Below are positions 4,209-59,022 of a stretch of DNA of 64,000 nucleotides, one piece after another (position 1 is the stretch's first letter; each line of letters begins with the position of its first letter). Source of the stretch: a bacterium (GTDB taxonomy: Bacteria > Patescibacteriota > Minisyncoccia > UBA6257 > 2-01-FULL-56-20); NCBI GenBank assembly GCA_021780195.1, contig JAJXZE010000002.1, positions 20,220 through 84,219 of the forward strand. Direction: 5' to 3'. The notes beneath the pieces are model-generated. The model did no database searches and was not told where the DNA came from. It worked only from the letters and a program-made list of their open reading frames with translations. A program made the position numbers and the translations under genes.

Positions 4209-4406
4209 TGGTATGATTTTAGCGCCGATGGCCCCGCGGAGGAAGTGCCTCTCCGTCGAAGGGCTCGCCCTAGCGCCGTCCCAATGCCTCCTCCCGCACC
4301 CCATCGCGCCGTACCCTTTTACCTTGACTAACAGGCATCGTAAGTGGCATAATATGGGTGTTCTTTAAAAATTCACGTGCCGCCTCCGGGCGGCGAGGAG
4401 AGAATC

Positions 4407-5024
4407 ATGAAAAAGTTTTTTGTTTTTGTTTTTGTCGTCGCTTTTTGTCTCCTCCTGCCGGAGGAGTTGAAGGCGCAGGGGGTCGCCTTCCAGTGGGGAG
4501 GCCCCAAAACGACGCTCTTGATCAACAACAGCGTCAACCGCCCCGCCCTGGTGACCGTCGGGCAGCAGGTATGGCCGCTGTATCCGGGACAAACTCTCTC
4601 TCTAAAATACGGATATTGGGAGAGGCAAAACCAGGCGCTCATCGTCGACGTCTGCGAGCAACTCACTTTCTCGCGGTCGGCGATTGCGCCGCCAGCATGG
4701 GCAACCGACCCCAACGTCGTCGGGGCCGCCGCAATTCCGGCGGGCTATAACAACCCCGATAAAAAAATCCTTGATGAGGCGGTAGGGCGGCTCAGGGCCG
4801 CCATCAAAAACCGCCTCGGCGGGCGAAATATGCGTCGCGAACTCGACGCGTGGGCGAAGGAGGTCAAAAAGCATGGCCTCGTTCGCTTCTCCCCCGTTTG
4901 CGAGGGCCGCTCCACCGTTGCACAGGTAACGGACGTCCAGCAGTGGGGCTGGAACCGCTCCATCGTCGTCCAGATCGCAAAGGACGCATGGAGCAAGAGC
5001 TATGCCCTCCGCACTCTTCAGTAG
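4407..5024 (+). CDS. Secreted hypothetical protein
   Basis: GAGGAG SD upstream of ATG 4407. N-terminal signal-like MKKFFVFVFVVAFCLLLPEELKAQG. No recognised domain. Confidence 0.6.
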   Translation: MKKFFVFVFVVAFCLLLPEELKAQGVAFQWGGPKTTLLINNSVNRPALVTVGQQVWPLYPGQTLSLKYGYWERQNQALIVDVCEQLTFSRSAIAPPAWATDPNVVGAAAIPAGYNNPDKKILDEAVGRLRAAIKNRLGGRNMRRELDAWAKEVKKHGLVRFSPVCEGRSTVAQVTDVQQWGWNRSIVVQIAKDAWSKSYALRTLQ

Positions 5025-10105: not shown

Positions 10106-11455
10106 GCTCTTATAAAGAATATCCTTTATGGTTAATATCTTCTGGTTGAGCGCGGGATTCTTGTTCACCTCCTGGTTGATTTTCTCGTAGGAGTGGATGG
10201 CGGTAGTGTGGTCCCTCCCCATCTTTTCCCCAATGTACGGGTAGGAAAGTTCGGAAATTTCACGGAGGAGATACATCGCGATCTGCCGCGGCTCCACAAT
10301 TTCCTTCCGGCGGTTATGGCTTACCAGGTCTTCGATGGAAACATTGAAGAATTCAGCGACTGCCTTCAATATTTGGGCGTCCCCGACCCTCTTGGACAGG
10401 TTCTTCGTCGATTTGTCGATGATCTCCTCCGCAAGCGCCATGGTGATCTCGGTGTGTCCGGTTTCCTGGAGGAAGAGGAGCTTTTTCAGAACCCCCTCGA
10501 GCTCGCGGATGTTCTTCCTGAGGCGCCTCGCGAGAAGGTCCACCACGTTGTCATCGATGTTGCGTCCAGCCTCGGAAAGCCTGCTCCGTATGATGGCGAC
10601 GCGCATTTCGTACTCCGGGTATCCGATGTCGGCCACAAACCCTCCTTCAAAACGCGAACGGAGGCGTTCCTCAAGGGTGGGGAGAGACTGCGGCGGCCGG
10701 TCGGAGGAAATAATGATCTGCTTGTTTGCCTCGTAAAGGGCGTTGAAGGTATGAAAGAATTCCTCCTCCGTTTTTTCCTTCCCGCCGATGAATTGGATGT
10801 CGTCGATGATGAGTACGTCGGCGTCGCGATATTTTTTCTTCACGCTCTCGATCCGGTCGTTGCGGAGCCCCCACACCACCTCCCTTGTGAACTGTTCCGA
10901 GGGGACGTATTTCGGCTTTATCTTTTTCTGATAGCGCGAGACGATCTCATTTCCCACCGCCTGGATGAGGTGCGTCTTGCCGAGGCCCACGCCGCCATAA
11001 ATGAAGAATGGATTATATTTCCCGATCACTTCCGTGATCGCCTTCGCGGCCGCGAAGGCGAGTTCGTTCGAGGGGCCGACCACAAAGGTGGAAAAGGTGT
11101 AGCGGGGGTTGAGGTTGGTCTCCGGATCCGCCCTCCCGAGATCGAGTTCGCCGGCCCCGAGCTCGCCGAGCTCCTTCGATGACGCCGCGGCCTTCTGCGG
11201 CGCAGGCATCTGGGAGTTGATGACGAACTCAACCTTCTTCACGGAGTTTTCTTTGTTGCGGAGGATGCCGAGAATGTTCTTGTGATACTTATCCTCAATC
11301 CAGGACTTCGCAAAATTGCTCGGCAGGGACACGTAGAGGGTGCCTTCGCGCCAGTCGATGGGCCGGCTCTCCTTCAGCCACATCGAAAAGTTGGCTTTCG
11401 TAAGTTGGATCTCCATCTCCCCGAGGGTTGATTGCCAAAGTTTTTCGAGATCCAT
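10103..11455 (-). CDS. dnaA: Chromosomal replication initiator DnaA
   Basis: 450 aa with Walker [11 protein letters not shown], an AAA+ core and the C-terminal DNA-binding helix region ([12 protein letters not shown]). Confidence 0.97.
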
Positions 11456-49353: not shown

Positions 49354-50136
49354 TTACGCGGATCGTGGGGTTGGCTCCTTTATCTGCTCCGCGAGTCCCC
49401 AGAGATACTCGAAGAGATATTTATGCATGGCGTAAATGTGCGGGTCAGCAAGAATGACGCCGATCATTCTTTCCGGCCGCAGAGTGACGTAAGCGATTTT
49501 TCCGTCATAAATATTCATGATGCTTTCGAATGGAGGGGCGTCCACTCGTATGAGGCGGCTCTCGGTCACGGCGAGGTGGTAATCCTTCAGGTACTCCCGC
49601 GTCGCCGGGGTATCAAGAAGGATGCCGCGCCGTTTGACTCCCAGTTTTTCCCTCTTGGCCACATAAGCGTTATTGAGGGGGCCGATATTTTTCATCACCG
49701 CCTCGATATCCGCATATGAACAGATCTCAGTCCGCGATATAAGCGTATCGTCCAGGACCTTTTTAATGCCCTCAAGGCCTTCGTAGAATAGAACACCGGG
49801 TTTTCCGGATGAAAGGTTGAAATCGGAAACCAGCGAGTTCAGAACTCCCTCGAGTGCGACGTGGGCATCGGCGGCCGCACGCGATTTCTGGTCAGCCAGA
49901 TCTCTTAGTTTCAATGGGTGGGCCGGTTCAAATTGAGCCACCGATCCCGCCTTGTCCCGTCGGACGGCCAGGCCCCCTGCTTCAAGTTCCCCGAGGATCT
50001 TGTAGGTAAGGCCGCGCTTTAGTCCTGCGTAGCTACTGATTTTTCCCGCTGGAAGCAAGCCATGCTTTACTAGGATCTCGTAGAGCTTGGCCTGGTCTGG
50101 AGAAAGTCCCGCCCTAGAAAGGGTCTGTTCGTACAT
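49354..50136 (-). CDS. TrmB-family transcriptional regulator
   Basis: N-terminal winged HTH MYEQTLSRAGLSPDQAKLYEILVKHGLLPAGKISSYAGLKRGLTYKILGELEAGGL plus a C-terminal TrmB-like sensor-length domain. Divergent from the operon promoter. Confidence 0.7.
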   Translation of the reverse strand: MYEQTLSRAGLSPDQAKLYEILVKHGLLPAGKISSYAGLKRGLTYKILGELEAGGLAVRRDKAGSVAQFEPAHPLKLRDLADQKSRAAADAHVALEGVLNSLVSDFNLSSGKPGVLFYEGLEGIKKVLDDTLISRTEICSYADIEAVMKNIGPLNNAYVAKREKLGVKRRGILLDTPATREYLKDYHLAVTESRLIRVDAPPFESIMNIYDGKIAYVTLRPERMIGVILADPHIYAMHKYLFEYLWGLAEQIKEPTPRSA

Positions 50137-50220
50137 GGCTTCATTGCAATAATAACATAAAATTAACGCTTTGGAAAGTGTCACGGGGCGTAAAAAGGGC
50201 TTAATCTTTTTTATTTATCG

Positions 50221-50234
50221 TCATAAAATTATGA
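50221..50234. promoter_or_regulatory. Inverted repeat TCATAA-AA-TTATGA in the divergent control region
   Basis: Lies between the TrmB-type gene and the 50317 promoter. It is a possible operator. Confidence 0.3.
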
Positions 50235-50316
50235 CAATTAATGCTATAAAACTCGGCCATTTGTATCATGAAAATACTTATTTCTGCAGAAATTTAGAAA
50301 GATGCGCCACAAGAAC

Positions 50317-50345
50317 TTGACAGTTTTCATTGCATATGGTAATAT
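50317..50345 (+). promoter_or_regulatory. Near-consensus sigma70-type promoter of the novel operon
   Basis: TTGACA (50317-50322), a 17-nt spacer, then TAATAT (50340-50345). Confidence 0.7.
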
Positions 50346-50351
50346 ATCACC

Positions 50352-51084
50352 AGCACGATGACAGAGGGGGTGGTTCCGGAGGGTGCGCGGCTGGCAGGGA
50401 GGGGAATGGATTGAAGGGATCTATTCCTCTCCCCGAGAGCAAGAGGAGAGGCCTAAGGAGATCCGGGGAAGAGATCTTCATCAGCTCTTTGTAAAACGAC
50501 GGTCGCTCGCGGATATCAGTCTCGAGGAGAGAGTTATCTCGCAGGGCGATTCAGTCAAGCATTCGTCGCGGCGCGTGTCATCGCTTCAAAAGAGCGAGAG
50601 CGGTAGCGGGGCCAGGGAGTCGACGACTCTGCCTCCAATGCCGCGCTGATCAAATCGATCCACAGCGCCACCACGTTTCTTTTTGTGAGATACGTTGCCG
50701 GCGAAACGGTCCAACCCGCCGTTTCTCGGCAAAAATCTCCCCGAAAGAGGAGAGTGATATGGTTCCCTTAGTAAGGAGATCGACTGGAGAGCAAGCTCGG
50801 GTCCGGTTGGTCTCCAGAAACCTCCTTACTAACTCGATCGCAATCTGCGAAAACCGAGGAGAGAGCAGATTGTTAGAGGAGAGAGTAAGGAAGTACCTTG
50901 AAAATTGAATAGCCAAAGTAGTGCTTATAGCGATTATACGTTCGCGGATTATTACACGGGAGCGTCCGAGCTATGGCATTTTGACTTTGAAGTTCCTCCC
51001 GAGTTTGGTTGTCAACTGAGGTTCTGATTTTTGGTGCTTCAGTTGGCAATCAAACTCAAATACGAAACGAAAGGAGGGAGTCAA
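50352..51084 (+). ncRNA. ~730-nt structured leader / candidate ncRNA
   Basis: No convincing ORF. Nested helices lie at 50417-50464, 50695-50732 and 50768-50832 (11 + 7 bp). GAGGAGAG occurs five times (50443, 50524, 50747, 50856, 50876). Confidence 0.45.
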
Positions 51085-51555
51085 ATGAACTATTTGTTGG
51101 GGTCGGGTGAGGCGGTCATTGATCGTTTCAACTCGCACGTTCACGACGGAGTGGCGCGGCTCCTACCCGCGGCGCTGCTTCGAGTTCAGTCACAGGGTAG
51201 GAAGTTCCTCATCGAGGAAGTTGACTTTGGTCAACCAGTCGGTGAGACGATCTGCGTTCCAACCGGGCCAGGGGACGAGATCGTATACGCAATTCGGCCC
51301 AAGAGATTCGGGCACTCGCGGTTCGTCAAAAATCGCAAGCCCGAGCCATGTGGTGCGGTGACGATCATTCTCAAAAGGGATGAATTTGATCCGTACTATG
51401 TCCTAATTACGGCCTTCGTAGGCCATAAACCTGAGCCCGAGCCATGGGATCGCAATTCCAATGGTTTGAGTCGGGACTTCTGGAGTTCTCACGCCCTCAT
51501 CTGGGGGTGCGAGGAAGTCATGCACAACACAGTAACCACGGAATGTCCGTGGTAA
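51085..51555 (+). CDS. Operon gene A: hypothetical protein (156 aa)
   Basis: AGGAGGG SD 7 nt upstream of ATG 51085. Sequence MNYLLGSGEAVIDRF...RFGHSRFV...YYVLITAFVGHKPEPEPWD...FWSSHALIW. No family recognised. Confidence 0.7.
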   Translation: MNYLLGSGEAVIDRFNSHVHDGVARLLPAALLRVQSQGRKFLIEEVDFGQPVGETICVPTGPGDEIVYAIRPKRFGHSRFVKNRKPEPCGAVTIILKRDEFDPYYVLITAFVGHKPEPEPWDRNSNGLSRDFWSSHALIWGCEEVMHNTVTTECPW

Positions 51556-55060: not shown

Positions 55061-55758
55061 TTCTTATGGCGAGAGCCACGGAGAACCCGAATCTTTCCGC
55101 GGGATGGAGTGTGCGGGGAAGATCGGAGGCGGTCTTCGGTAGGGCTGCTTCTTAAAACATGACCCGGCGATGCATCAGGCCGAAGTCTGATGTAGGTTCC
55201 AGCGGCAGATGTTTGTCGGCTATCAGGGATATCCGGCAGACAGTTGGAACAAAGGGGTTTGTACATTTGCGGGTTCATTGGTGTGCGAGCTTCTCTCCCT
55301 GAAATGGAGAAACGAACCAAAAGCGAAGTTAACCTTCAACCGGCGGTTGGCAATCATCCGTCGAGCGTTAACCCCAAGTGGAATTAGCGGTGCTTAATAA
55401 AGGCCACAGGCCTAATGAGCCGCTAAATCCAGCAAGGTCGCAGAGTTCCCTTCGGGGGATAAATAAATTGCATAAGCCGAGAAATCGGAATGCGGATCGC
55501 GCTTGACTTAAAGCGCGAGAAGCGAGTGGCCAGTCAATCGGCCGTCCGATTTGTCCAGTTGCGAGCAACATTGCAGTTGGACTAGGCGAAGATTGAACGC
55601 GCTCATCCGCGAAACTTCAAATTCGGCCTAGGGTTCGATGAGGGGTTCTATAAAATTCTTGACTTTGGCCAAGTCTTGGCGGCACTTGCTTTGCCGTAAC
55701 CTCGGGCTAATCGCAAGTTAGCTCGAGGAAAGCAAGAAGGGTTTAGGGTTTACAGTCC
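55061..55758 (+). ncRNA. Candidate large structured RNA inside the operon
   Basis: About 800 nt without a credible ORF. Stable helices include 55385-55425 (nested), a C(UUCG)G hairpin at 55445-55460, a GAAA-tetraloop hairpin at 55477-55488, an 8-bp helix at 55497-55518 and a three-tier helix at 55685-55736. Confidence 0.5.
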
Positions 55759-55824
55759 GGGCGAGTTGACGCACTCAACTCGCCCCTTCTTCCGAACTCA
55801 TCATCATGGTGATGATGAGTTCGG
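55759..55824 (+). promoter_or_regulatory. Two tandem perfect hairpins preceding gene G
   Basis: GGGCGAGTTGA-CGCAC-TCAACTCGCCC (55759-55785, followed by CTTCTTCC) and CCGAACTCATCATCA-TGG-TGATGATGAGTTCGG (55792-55824). They may act as an attenuator, terminator or processing site. Confidence 0.45.
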
Positions 55825-58366: not shown

Positions 58367-58683
58367 CTTGACCACGAAGGCAAGGAGTGCGAGCTGGAGG
58401 CCAAGCCAACCCCCGCTCCGTTCTACACGGACGCGGGTGCCAGTTACCATCTGATTTACGGTGATTGGGCGCAGCATACGGTTCTCCGCCATCACGGCGA
58501 GGAGCTGTATCGCTCGGATCGGAGCAATTACAAGTGGTTCATGCTCCGAGTCGCAAAGCAGTAGAACCACGCCACCTCGTCCACCCGAGGTACGAATTCA
58601 AAGTGAGTCAGGGGAGTGGATAATGGCTCAAAGGGTTAAAAGGTTTACAATCAAGGGAGCAAGTAATGCACTTGCTTGCTCCC

Positions 58684-58736
58684 TCTCTTTCTCGGATGTG
58701 TATCCGAGCTGATGAGTCCGAAAGGACGAAAAGAGA
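58684..58736 (+). ncRNA. Type III hammerhead ribozyme
   Basis: Reading 5' to 3': TCTCTT (stem III 5' strand), U17, predicted cleavage between 58690 and 58691, then stem I CTCGGAT-GTGT-ATCCGAG. These are followed by the core CUGAUGA, stem II GUCC-GAAA-GGAC, the core GAA, and AAGAGA (stem III 3' strand). All conserved core nucleotides are present. Confidence 0.8.
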
Positions 58737-58996
58737 CAGAACATTAAAAAAGTGATATAATATAAATGGCCATCAAGAGGCCGATGCGTCAGCTTAACGG
58801 AATCGGATCGGGGCAGCAGTGTGAGATCGTCCCCGCTCTGTGTAAATAGAGAAGGGACAAAAATCTCTCTCCTCTAAAACACCGTTCCTCGGTCTGTATA
58901 ATTTCAGGTAAGCTGGCGCGCGGCCTCGTGATGGACATCAGCCCGTCACGAGGAGAGGATGAAAGGCGCAACTTTTCATCCTTTAATATACAAAGT

Positions 58997-59022
58997 CCGC
59001 CTTCTTAAGGCGGCCCTTTTTT
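58997..59022 (+). terminator. Rho-independent terminator
   Basis: CCGCCTT-CTT-AAGGCGG followed by CCCTTTTTT. Confidence 0.7.

What the first reader, a model, noticed from the sequence alone, without database searches (positions are those of the whole stretch)
50317..51084. Strong promoter followed by a ~730-nt ORF-poor, highly structured leader with five GAGGAGAG motifs
The near-consensus promoter is separated from the first well-supported start codon (51085) by about 730 nt. That interval contains only two weak ORFs, with GTG or no SD and disordered composition, but several long helices:
- GGATCT..CCTCTCC..GGAGAGG..AGATCC (50417-50464).
- A 15-bp bulged helix (50695-50732).
- TTAGTAAGGAG..CTGGAGA..TCTCCAG..CTCCTTACTAA (50768-50832).

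The octamer GAGGAGAG recurs at 50443, 50524, 50747, 50856 and 50876. Some copies are paired and some exposed. The region could be a riboregulator or leader sensing a signal, a protein-titrating RNA, or an independent ncRNA component of the system.
Basis: seen in the sequence. Interest (0 to 1): 0.6.

Follow-up and report, generated by a model that had tools for sequence, protein, structure and literature searches.

The report
Conserved structured leader targeted by small RNA
The 730-base gap is a real, conserved, highly folded non-coding RNA leader in ultra-small (Patescibacteria-type) bacteria. Its repeated GAGGAGAG motifs exactly complement a small RNA encoded further along the same gene cluster, which points to an undescribed RNA-on-RNA control circuit.

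Summary
The interval is non-coding; no reading frame is conserved in any of six frames.

It is the 5' leader of an operon whose first gene (156 aa) is widespread in Patescibacteria MAGs. The leader has two parts:
- **Fast-evolving 5' part**, 50352-50767.
- **Conserved 317-nt core**, 50768-51084, which is 94% and 90% identical to relatives whose adjacent coding sequence is only 81-83% identical.

The core holds two hairpin domains with strong covariation:
- Module A: 31 sequences, 94% of cells paired against 40-52% in slid controls.
- Module B plus a 57-nt hairpin: 14 sequences, 97.5% against 33-42%.

A CCUCCC tract in the core can pair with the Shine-Dalgarno site. No Rfam family matches.

The key new result concerns the GAGGAGAG(AG) copies. 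They are 9-13-nt perfect complements of the seed AAAUCUCUCUCCUCUAA of a conserved small RNA at 58737-59022. That RNA follows a type III hammerhead ribozyme at 58684-58736. Seven other loci show the same pairing (1-7 sites each; under 0.2 expected), and the flanks co-vary.

Best reading: a multi-site base-pairing target or sponge leader. No expression data exist, so the regulatory outcome is inferred.

The parts
49354..50184 (-). Divergent TrmB-like HTH regulator gene
   Evidence: Pfam TrmB, E = 2e-7. A homologue lies divergently upstream in 23 of 40 loci with module A, against 12 of 125 without.
50220..50235 (.). Palindrome GTCATAAAATTATGAC, a possible operator between the divergent genes
   Evidence: Read. 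Similar GTCA-N8-TGAC palindromes sit at the same place in L002, L006 and L173. The operator function is inferred.
50317..50345 (+). Sigma-70-type promoter TTGACA-17-TAATAT with TG extension; predicted start near 50352
   Evidence: Equivalent TTGACA-17-TATAAT promoters lie upstream of the leader in L087, L163, L002, L006, L026, L164 and L135.
50352..50767 (+). Fast-evolving 5' part of the leader, with GA motifs 1-3, CU-rich partner tracts and lineage-specific hairpins
   Evidence: The aligned stretch 50483-50767 is only 43-54% identical to L162, L163 and L087. Shared features are AGYUCUUU at 50483 and a CAUUCUC/GAGAGUG-type helix around GA motif 2.
50442..50450 (+). GA motif 1 (AGAGGAGAG), 9 nt complementary to the sRNA seed; can also pair in cis with CCUCUCC at 50425-50431
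50524..50533 (+). GA motif 2 (GAGGAGAGAG), 10-nt complement; its 3' half pairs with GUCUC upstream
   Evidence: Position is conserved in L026, L162, L087, L097, L006, L030 and L035.
50746..50754 (+). GA motif 3 (AGAGGAGAG), 9-nt complement
50768..50832 (+). Module A: three-tier hairpin with conserved internal loop (AUCGR / RAAY) and apical loop (CUAACCC-like)
   Evidence: 31 distinct sequences. 19 pairs, 17 with compensatory changes. 93.9% of cells paired against 40-52% when slid. Covariation 0.658 against at most 0.19. One copy per locus, always on the + strand upstream of the operon.
50841..50872 (+). Hairpin CAAUCUGC/GCAGAUUG showing GA motif 4 (50856-50865) in its loop
   Evidence: Stems differ but the hairpin is kept in L163, L164, L002, L088, L087, L165 and L004. 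10-nt complement to the seed.
50873..50885 (+). GA motif 5 (UUAGAGGAGAGAG), single-stranded linker and 13-nt perfect complement of the sRNA seed
   Evidence: Conserved in most relatives.
50887..50913 (+). Small hairpin AAGG/CCUU (AAAGA/UCUUU in relatives) followed by the conserved block GAMAAYUGAAUAG
   Evidence: In L097 and L135 a hammerhead ribozyme sits directly upstream of this block.
50914..50989 (+). Module B: long irregular hairpin. Outer stem CAAAGU/ACUUUG, covarying middle stem, internal loop GAUUAU/CCGA, core helix ACGUUCGCG/CGGGAGCGU, near-invariant loop GAUUAUUACA
   Evidence: All 14 distinct sequences fold alone into the same shape. Covariation shown. L087 carries a 33-nt hairpin inserted in the apical loop.
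50995..51000 (+). Pyrimidine tract CCUCCC, a candidate anti-Shine-Dalgarno element
   Evidence: A CCUCC-like tract sits at this place in all 14 sequences. It pairs with the SD in the MFE of 12 of 12 sequences folded. Pairing probability is not clearly above shuffles.
51001..51057 (+). 57-nt hairpin with no U-tract after it, so not a terminator; it brings the CCUCCC tract next to the SD
   Evidence: I2. 19 pairs, 12 with compensatory changes, 96.6% paired.
51073..51087 (+). Shine-Dalgarno GGAGGG and ATG of the 156-aa gene (51085-51555)
58684..58736 (+). Type III hammerhead ribozyme: UCUCU-UU|CUCGG...CCGAG-CUGAUGA-GUCC-GAAA-GGAC-GAAA-AGAGA
   Evidence: Rfam RF00008 scores 24.1 bits, below the gathering score of 48.5. 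The core is complete. 15 pairs are 98.9% paired across 6 loci, with covariation 0.756 against at most 0.18. Homologous hammerheads score 43.1 and 35.7 bits in L097 and L164.
58737..59022 (+). Conserved small RNA carrying the seed CUCUCUCCUCUAA (58865-58877), ending at an intrinsic terminator (58997-59013 plus T-run)
   Evidence: Conserved in L174, L177, L178, L002 and L003; the seed element is also in L011, L049 and L032. Fold z = -8.2, with much of the seed in an unpaired stretch. Terminator and an optional promoter at 58733-58761.

Best explanation
The interval is the long 5' leader of a conserved Patescibacteria-type operon, about 730 nt from the promoter at 50317 to the ATG at 51085. It is a non-coding, multi-domain structured RNA. 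Its conserved 317-nt core consists of module A, a loop-displayed and a single-stranded GAGGAGAGAG motif, module B, a CCUCCC tract and a 57-nt hairpin that places that tract opposite the Shine-Dalgarno site.

The repeated GAGGAGAG(AG) motifs are binding sites for a small RNA encoded 7.8 kb downstream on the same strand. That RNA sits just behind a hammerhead ribozyme, ends at a terminator, and has the seed AAAUCUCUCUCCUCUAA, which is perfectly complementary to the motifs over 9-13 nt.

The leader therefore most likely works as a multi-site base-pairing partner of this small RNA, as a regulated target and/or a sponge. Pairing just upstream of module B and the SD-sequestering helix would set translation and/or stability of the operon mRNA.

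**Shown:** non-coding status, conserved structure, motif conservation, existence and conservation of the complementary RNA element, and flank co-variation.
**Inferred:** that both RNAs are expressed, that they pair in vivo, and the direction of the regulatory effect.
For: **Non-coding.**
- Every one of six frames has stops in all 10 loci checked. ORF boundaries are not conserved, and tblastn hits appear in all frames alike.
- The core is more conserved than the gene it precedes: 94.3% and 90.2% nucleotide identity against 81.0% and 82.9% for the coding sequence.

**Conserved structure.**
- Covariation is shown for module A and for module B plus the hairpin.
- G-U pairs fit the + strand.

**Motif.**
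- It is enriched 7-fold on the + strand upstream of the gene across 80 loci: 51 copies in 110 kb against 0.065 per kb elsewhere. It is almost absent on the - strand.
- It is often shown in hairpin loops with covarying stems.

**Complementary small RNA.**
- The window seed 58865-58877 pairs perfectly with 50873-50885 (13 bp). There are four more sites of 9-10 nt.
- The same holds in L174 (3 sites), L177 (7), L178 (7), L002 (3), L003 (1), L011 (3) and L032 (3), against fewer than 0.2 sites in shuffled leaders.

**Flank co-variation.**
- L002 has CUAGAGG with CCUCUAG, while the window, L177 and L003 have UUAGAGG with CCUCUAA.
- The longer L178 seed matches AGAGGAGAGAGAGA.
- The L032 seed ACUCUCUCC matches GAGAGAGU.

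**Small RNA as a discrete + strand unit.**
- A hammerhead with covarying stems lies upstream.
- It has a terminator, a stable fold with z = -8.2 and an invariant seed in 6 of 6 sequences.

**Linkage.** All four close relatives whose contigs reach far enough (window, L174, L177, L178) carry both partners.

**SD pairing.** The CCUCC tract pairs with the SD in the MFE of 12 of 12 sequences.
Against: - There are no expression data of any kind.
- L175 (=L026) and L176 (=L017) have the leader with modules A and B, but no seed element was found in about 5.5 kb (L175) and about 9 kb (L176) held downstream of the p509-homologue gene. Their GA motifs 4 and 5 are also degenerate, which fits either co-loss or a partner located elsewhere.
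- L049 has the seed element, but no GA motif within 1.5 kb upstream of its gene.
- GAGGAGAG also serves as an ordinary Shine-Dalgarno sequence for real ORFs (window 4395; L035 and L016). The seed could therefore target many mRNAs, and the leader motifs could bind ribosomes.
- A 13-nt complement between a 730-nt leader and some place in 64 kb is not rare by itself (expectation about 0.7). The case rests on conservation in both partners.
- SD pairing probability is not clearly above composition-matched shuffles.
- The shuffles preserved mononucleotide content only.
Confidence: 0.6

Rival explanations
1. The GAGGAGAG motifs are Shine-Dalgarno mimics that bind 30S subunits. They would act as 5' stabilisers (like the Bacillus STAB-SD element) or as ribosome standby sites that help overcome the sequestered true SD. 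On this view the complementary small RNA is an unrelated general anti-SD regulator.
For: - The AGGAG core is present, and the same motif is used as a true SD before ORFs.
- In L135 a GA-motif hairpin sits at the predicted 5' end of the transcript.
- In L097 and L135 a hammerhead leaves a structured 5'-OH end at the position otherwise held by GA motif 5. This suggests a 5'-end protection role there.
- The true SD is predicted to be paired.
Against: - Conservation runs well beyond an SD core, to 10-13 nt including GAGAG(U).
- The flanks co-vary with the small-RNA seed rather than with a fixed rRNA tail.
- The 16S 3' end of this organism is not in the window, so complementarity to it could not be tested.
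Confidence: 0.2
2. The conserved core is a riboswitch-like or protein-binding leader. Module B (and/or module A) binds a small ligand or an operon-encoded protein, for example the 156-aa protein. This binding toggles the CCUCCC:SD helix. The GA motifs would be structural or alternative-pairing elements. This is not exclusive of the small-RNA model.
For: - Module B has near-invariant loops framed by covarying stems.
- A CCUCC tract and a clamp hairpin lie next to the SD in all 14 sequences.
- In six sequences the tract has an alternative local partner.
Against: - No known aptamer matches.
- Module B is a single hairpin rather than a junction.
- Module B is absent from many loci that keep module A and the GA motifs, such as L032, L015, L019 and L011.
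- SD sequestration is not statistically above shuffles.
- The protein fold match is weak.
Confidence: 0.3
3. The interval encodes one or more small proteins, for example the 49-aa ORF at 50759 with its strong SD, or the 40-aa ORF at 50905.
For: - GAGGAGAGtgatATG at 50747-50761 looks like a ribosome-binding site.
- The frame of the 50905 ORF scores slightly better than the other frames in tblastn.
Against: - In L164, L003, L004, L002, L088 and L165 the 50905 frame has a TAG just upstream of the conserved stretch, with no start codon before that stretch (read).
- ORFs are intact only in the closest relative.
- All six frames carry stops in every locus.
- Substitutions follow base-pairing.
Confidence: 0.03
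4. The leader is a protein sponge of the CsrB/RsmZ kind, with GGA-containing motifs in hairpin loops titrating a CsrA-like protein.
For: There are repeated AGGAG-containing motifs, some in hairpin loops and some in linkers.
Against: - The conserved unit is 10-13 nt, far longer than a GGA site.
- It matches an RNA seed exactly.
- No CsrA-like gene was seen among the cluster proteins scanned. The rest of the genome was not examined.
Confidence: 0.05

Closest known systems
Base-pairing small RNAs with C/U-rich seeds and their multi-site targets or sponges (e.g. RoxS/FsrA in Bacillus, RNAIII/Rsa RNAs in Staphylococcus, the ChiX-chb decoy, SroC and 3'ETS-leuZ sponges); from general knowledge
   Same: - A short C/U-rich, partly unpaired seed complements purine-rich SD-like sequences.
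- Several seed-matching sites lie on one partner RNA.
- The small RNA ends at an intrinsic terminator.
   Different: - The partner sites lie in a 730-nt structured leader, not at the translated RBS.
- There are up to 7 perfect 11-14-nt sites per leader.
- The small RNA is encoded in the same cluster and sits behind a hammerhead ribozyme.
- The lineage is Patescibacteria, where I know of no characterised base-pairing sRNA. The held literature gave none: no listed paper from the CPR/hammerhead search mentions a hammerhead ribozyme, and the other searches gave nothing relevant.
Riboswitch or other cis-regulatory leaders with SD-sequestering expression platforms
   Same: - 5' UTR location.
- Covarying stems around invariant loops.
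- A pyrimidine tract able to pair with the SD.
   Different: - No Rfam family matches.
- The leader is much longer and modular, with optional modules.
- No ligand is known.
- Sequestration is not statistically established.
STAB-SD 5' mRNA stabiliser of Bacillus thuringiensis cryIIIA (from general knowledge)
   Same: SD-like sequence far upstream of the start codon that is not used for initiation.
   Different: Here the motif is longer, repeated 3-8 times, partly loop-displayed, and matches a small-RNA seed.
Large ornate bacterial non-coding RNAs (OLE, GOLLD, ROOL, HEARO, raiA)
   Same: Size of several hundred nucleotides, many conserved helices, unknown biochemical role.
   Different: - No sequence or structure match in Rfam 15.
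- The element is fixed at the 5' end of one operon, and only its 3' 317 nt is strongly conserved.
Type III hammerhead ribozyme (Rfam RF00008), for the associated small RNA
   Same: Complete CUGAUGA...GAAA core, three stems with covariation, and a cleavage-site UH.
   Different: The window copy scores 24.1 bits, below the gathering score of 48.5. Its position suggests it could release or define a regulatory small RNA, or the 5' end of the module B mRNA in L097 and L135.

Membership tests
Any Rfam 15 family (4227 models) | Score at or above the family's gathering threshold | tested here: not met
   The window gives only 3 tRNAs. The leader at E <= 10 gives only chance microRNA-type hits. 20 homologous loci give only tRNAs. 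8 loci at E <= 1 give nothing in the leader core modules; one hammerhead in L097 lies between inserted ORF X and module B.
Structured non-coding RNA (general) | Base pairs kept through compensatory changes beyond controls | tested here: met
   Module A has 127 double-change cells against 11-37 when slid. Module B plus hairpin has 52 against 0-9.
Structured non-coding RNA (general) | No conserved open reading frame | tested here: met
sRNA target / sponge | Several sites complementary to one small-RNA seed, conserved in both partners | tested here: met
   8 loci have 1-7 sites of 9-14 nt, against fewer than 0.2 in shuffles, with flank co-variation. The seed is invariant in 6 aligned sRNAs.
sRNA target / sponge | Both RNAs expressed and pairing in vivo | not testable with these tools
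   No transcriptome data are available. Only promoters, a ribozyme and a terminator are predicted.
Riboswitch | Conserved aptamer with covarying stems and invariant ligand-pocket nucleotides | tested here: inconclusive
   Module B fits formally, but it is a single hairpin and matches no known class.
Riboswitch | Ligand-dependent switch of an expression platform | not testable with these tools
   SD:CCUCC pairing is predicted in 12 of 12 sequences but is not above shuffles.
STAB-SD / ribosome standby site | Complementarity to the 3' end of the organism's 16S rRNA | not testable with these tools
   There is no rRNA gene in the window. An AGGAG core is present.
CsrB/RsmZ-type protein sponge | Many short GGA sites in loops and a cognate CsrA protein | tested here: inconclusive
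   GGA-containing motifs sit in loops, but the conserved unit is 10-13 nt. No CsrA was found among the cluster proteins. The rest of the genome was not searched.
Hammerhead type III (associated sRNA) | CUGAUGA and GAAA cores, three helices, NUH cleavage site | tested here: met
   The Rfam score is below gathering in the window (24.1 of 48.5), and 43.1 bits in L097.
Known anti-phage defence systems (PADLOC) | Cluster proteins match a defence-system model set | tested here: not met
   Only generic AAA (IetA-like) and radical SAM (pVip-like) domain hits.

The most novel reading that the evidence does not exclude
The cluster is an RNA-centred system peculiar to Patescibacteria, with three conserved structured RNAs. 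These are this leader, a roughly 690-nt RNA at 55114-55806, and the hammerhead-associated CU-seed RNA.

They would act together with a RelE-fold-like 156-aa protein, a radical SAM enzyme and an AAA+ ATPase. On this reading the leader is not just a regulatory UTR. It would be a scaffold or substrate of the machinery, for example RNA that is cut, modified or remodelled. The small RNA would tether or guide that machinery through the repeated GA sites.
Probability: 0.12. Interest if true: 0.85.

Novelty: new variant of a known kind. Interest (0 to 1): 0.72.

Why it matters
Post-transcriptional regulation in Patescibacteria (CPR) is essentially unexplored. These organisms are mostly uncultured and make up a large share of bacterial diversity.

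This locus offers a concrete, testable RNA circuit:
- a strongly conserved structured leader;
- a small RNA with a perfectly matching seed;
- self-cleaving ribozymes placed where they could define RNA ends.

It adds at least two RNA families absent from Rfam, the leader core modules and the CU-seed RNA, plus a third candidate at 55114-55806. It also marks an operon of unknown function (156-aa protein, radical SAM, AAA+) as tightly regulated. The leader core is more conserved than the protein it precedes.

The predicted pairing can be tested in vitro, or in a heterologous host with compensatory mutations, without culturing the organism.

Tried and rejected
- **Rfam** at gathering and at permissive thresholds, on the window and 28 homologous loci: nothing for the leader.
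- **Protein-coding reading:** rejected.
- **Upstream ORF** from GA motif 4 ending at the conserved UGA/UAG of AAUUGAAUAG: frames and stops are not conserved (read).
- **Internal promoter** at TTGAAA/TTGACA (50897): the -10 is poor and the spacer is only 15 nt. A covarying hairpin overlaps it, and in L097/L135 a co-transcribed hammerhead lies just upstream, so it is treated as an RNA element.
- **The 15-bp helix 50695-50732** as a conserved feature: not supported.
- **K-turn or tetraloop-receptor reading of module A loops:** the sequences do not fit (by inspection).
- **SD sequestration significance:** high pairing probability, but shuffles are also high.
- **RNAduplex energies:** uninformative because long loops are allowed. 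Replaced by exact-complement counts.
- **Inverted-duplication artefact:** complementarity is limited to the 13-nt seed and the flanks are unrelated.
- **Viral contigs:** the module B core pattern gave 0 hits. The module A pattern gave 6 chance hits inside coding DNA with no flanking features.
- **Defence-system, NCBIfam and Pfam scans of neighbours:** only generic domains.
- **Literature searches:** no description found.

Full report
**Observation**

- The promoter TTGACA-17-TAATAT, with a TG extension, lies at 50317-50345.
- GAGGAGAG occurs at 50443, 50524, 50747, 50856 and 50876. The window holds 13 copies against 3.0 expected, and no shuffle of 100 reaches 13.
- The predicted transcript 50352-51090 folds much better than shuffles, with z = -7.2.
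- The three helices exist as complementary arms.
- Only short, oddly composed ORFs lie in the interval.

**Surroundings**

Downstream on the + strand lie these genes:
- a 156-aa protein gene (51085-51555);
- genes of 96, 149 and 77 aa, the last a weak DUF2997 match;
- an NrdG-like radical SAM enzyme;
- a 602-aa Cdc48-like AAA+ ATPase.

A TrmB-like regulator is transcribed divergently upstream. The 156-aa protein has no family assignment. It is 56-83% identical to proteins from many Patescibacteria MAGs. I fetched 80 genome loci, 80 metagenome loci and 13 further loci (12 contigs) around its homologues and around a downstream gene.

**The interval is conserved as nucleotide sequence, not as protein**

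- Iterated nhmmer finds the leader upstream of the gene in 44 loci.
- Translated searches hit in all frames alike.
- ORF boundaries are not conserved.
- All six frames carry stops in each of 10 loci.
- The frame of the 40-aa ORF at 50905 is blocked by a TAG, with no start codon before the conserved stretch, in six lineages.
- The 3' 317 nt (50768-51084) is 94.3% identical to L162 and 90.2% to L163. The adjacent coding sequence is only 81.0% and 82.9% identical. The 5' part (50483-50767) is 43-54% identical.

**Structure of the core**

- Module A (50768-50832) is a three-tier hairpin with conserved internal and apical loops. In 31 distinct sequences, 93.9% of cells are paired against 40-52% when partners are slid. 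17 of 19 pairs show compensatory changes, and the covariation score is 0.658 against at most 0.19. It occurs once per locus, always on the + strand upstream of the operon.
- Next comes a hairpin whose stem varies and covaries. It shows GA motif 4 in its loop.
- GA motif 5 follows in a linker, then a small covarying hairpin and the block GAMAAYUGAAUAG.
- Module B (50914-50989) is a long irregular hairpin with near-invariant loops. All 14 distinct sequences fold into it on their own.
- Module B and the 57-nt hairpin 51001-51057 together are 97.5% paired against 33-42% slid.
- A CCUCC-like tract sits between them in all 14 sequences. It pairs with the Shine-Dalgarno site in the MFE of all 12 folded. 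Pairing probability is not clearly above composition-matched shuffles, so I treat SD sequestration as inferred.
- No intrinsic terminator separates the promoter from the gene.
- No Rfam family matches, in the window or in 28 related loci.

**The architecture is modular**

- Strong TTGACA-17-TATAAT promoters lie upstream of the leader in many loci.
- Module B is absent from some lineages that keep module A and the GA motifs.
- Extra ORFs can sit between the modules.
- In L097 and L135 a type III hammerhead lies directly upstream of the module B block.
- L173 lacks the 156-aa gene and has a variant leader with GAGAGAG motifs.
- The TrmB-like gene accompanies module A in 23 of 40 loci, against 12 of 125 loci without it.

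**The motif**

Across the first 80 loci, the motif is seven-fold enriched on the + strand upstream of the gene and nearly absent on the other strand. Its consensus is (U)AGAGGAGAGAG(U).

I followed hammerheads found on the + strand of several loci. Downstream of the hammerhead in the window, L002 and L003 lies a conserved RNA carrying AAAUCUCUCUCCUCUA, the exact complement of the motif.
- In the window, the seed 58865-58877 pairs perfectly with 50873-50885 (13 bp). It also pairs with the other four motifs over 9-10 nt.
- The RNA is conserved, with an invariant seed.
- It folds stably (z = -8.2), with much of the seed in an unpaired stretch.
- It ends at a terminator.
- It follows a hammerhead whose 15 pairs are 98.9% kept with covariation.
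- Four more full-length loci were fetched. L174, L177 and L178 carry both partners.
- In eight loci the leader has 1-7 sites of 9-14 nt matching that locus's own seed, against fewer than 0.2 in shuffled leaders. Differences in the seed flanks are mirrored in the sites: L002 C-G against U-A, the longer L178 seed, and the L032 A/U change.
- The complementarity does not extend beyond the seed, so it is not an inverted duplication.

**Interpretation**

The leader is best explained as a structured 5' UTR that serves as a multi-site pairing partner of a locus-encoded small RNA, either as target or as sponge. The strongest sites lie just upstream of module B and the SD-clamping hairpin.

Caveats:
- There are no expression data.
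- L175 and L176 keep the leader but no seed RNA was found nearby. Their motifs 4 and 5 are degenerate.
- L049 has the seed element without a GA leader.
- The motif also works as an ordinary SD elsewhere, so an SD-mimic, stabiliser or standby role remains a serious rival.
- A ligand- or protein-binding role for modules A and B is compatible with the data and is not excluded.

**Novelty**

The kinds of parts are known: structured leader, C/U-seed small RNA, hammerhead. The families are not in Rfam. The combination has not, to my knowledge, been described, and the held literature gave nothing. That combination is:
- many perfect seed sites in a leader more conserved than its gene;
- a ribozyme-associated small RNA in the same cluster;
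- a Patescibacteria host.

Noticed in passing
window 55114-55806 (+): A third conserved non-coding region of about 690 nt lies between the AAA+ ATPase gene and the next ORF. It is conserved in L173, L174, L177, L178 and L175 (E <= 1e-141), with stops in all three + frames. MFE z = -7.6. RNAalifold predicts 176 pairs, 44 with compensatory changes in only 6 sequences. There is no Rfam hit. A gene-free gap of 590-955 nt follows the AAA gene in every full locus held. This is a candidate new large structured RNA.
   Followed up: partly
window 58684-58736 (+); L002 8763-8815, L003 8323-8375, L006 8691-8743, L009 3317-3369, L065 4268-4320, L097 1309-1369, L128 1719-1785, L135 2340-2403, L160 3151-3203, L164 1905-1965, L174 ~10587-10644, L177 ~10720, L178 ~9285: Type III hammerhead ribozymes recur on the operon strand in this gene cluster. 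They lie either after the operon, in front of the CU-seed RNA, or directly in front of module B. The window copy is below Rfam's gathering score (24.1 of 48.5 bits), so a default scan would miss it.
   Followed up: partly
window 58654-58684 (+): A strong 13-bp hairpin (AGGGAGCAAGUAAUGCACUUGCUUGCUCCCU) sits immediately before the hammerhead, and its 3' strand runs into hammerhead stem III. It is conserved in L174, L177 and L178. It could be a terminator of the upstream genes or a structure that competes with ribozyme folding.
   Followed up: no
window 58733-58761 (+): A promoter-like site, GAGACA-17-TATAAT with TG (10 of 12), overlaps the 3' end of the hammerhead. The small RNA might therefore also have its own start near 58768. 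It is present in L177 and L178 but not in L174, L002 or L003.
   Followed up: no
L163 3182-5321; L178 3772-5634: In L163 the radical SAM (Fer4_12) and AAA+ ATPase are called as one 764-aa fused protein. This argues that the two enzymes work together.
   Followed up: no
L173 1554-2514: A close relative of the cluster lacks the 156-aa gene and modules A and B. It keeps the divergent TrmB gene, a strong promoter, a 5' AAGUUCUUU block and a roughly 700-nt ORF-free leader. That leader carries GAGAGAG-type motifs and a GUCUCUCUCUC tract.
   Followed up: partly
[not shown]
   Followed up: partly
window 4395-4409 (+); L035 ~984-997; L016: The same GAGGAGAG(AG) sequence serves as the Shine-Dalgarno site directly before ATG start codons of ordinary ORFs. 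The CU-seed RNA could therefore have further mRNA targets.
   Followed up: no
window 50483-50491, 50721-50727, ~50893-50900 and equivalents in relatives: A short G/A-UUCUUU-like block recurs immediately before each major domain: AGYUCUUU at the 5' domain, CCGUUCU(U) before module A, and AGUUCUUUG before module B. It also follows hammerheads in L097 and L164. Its role is unknown.
   Followed up: no
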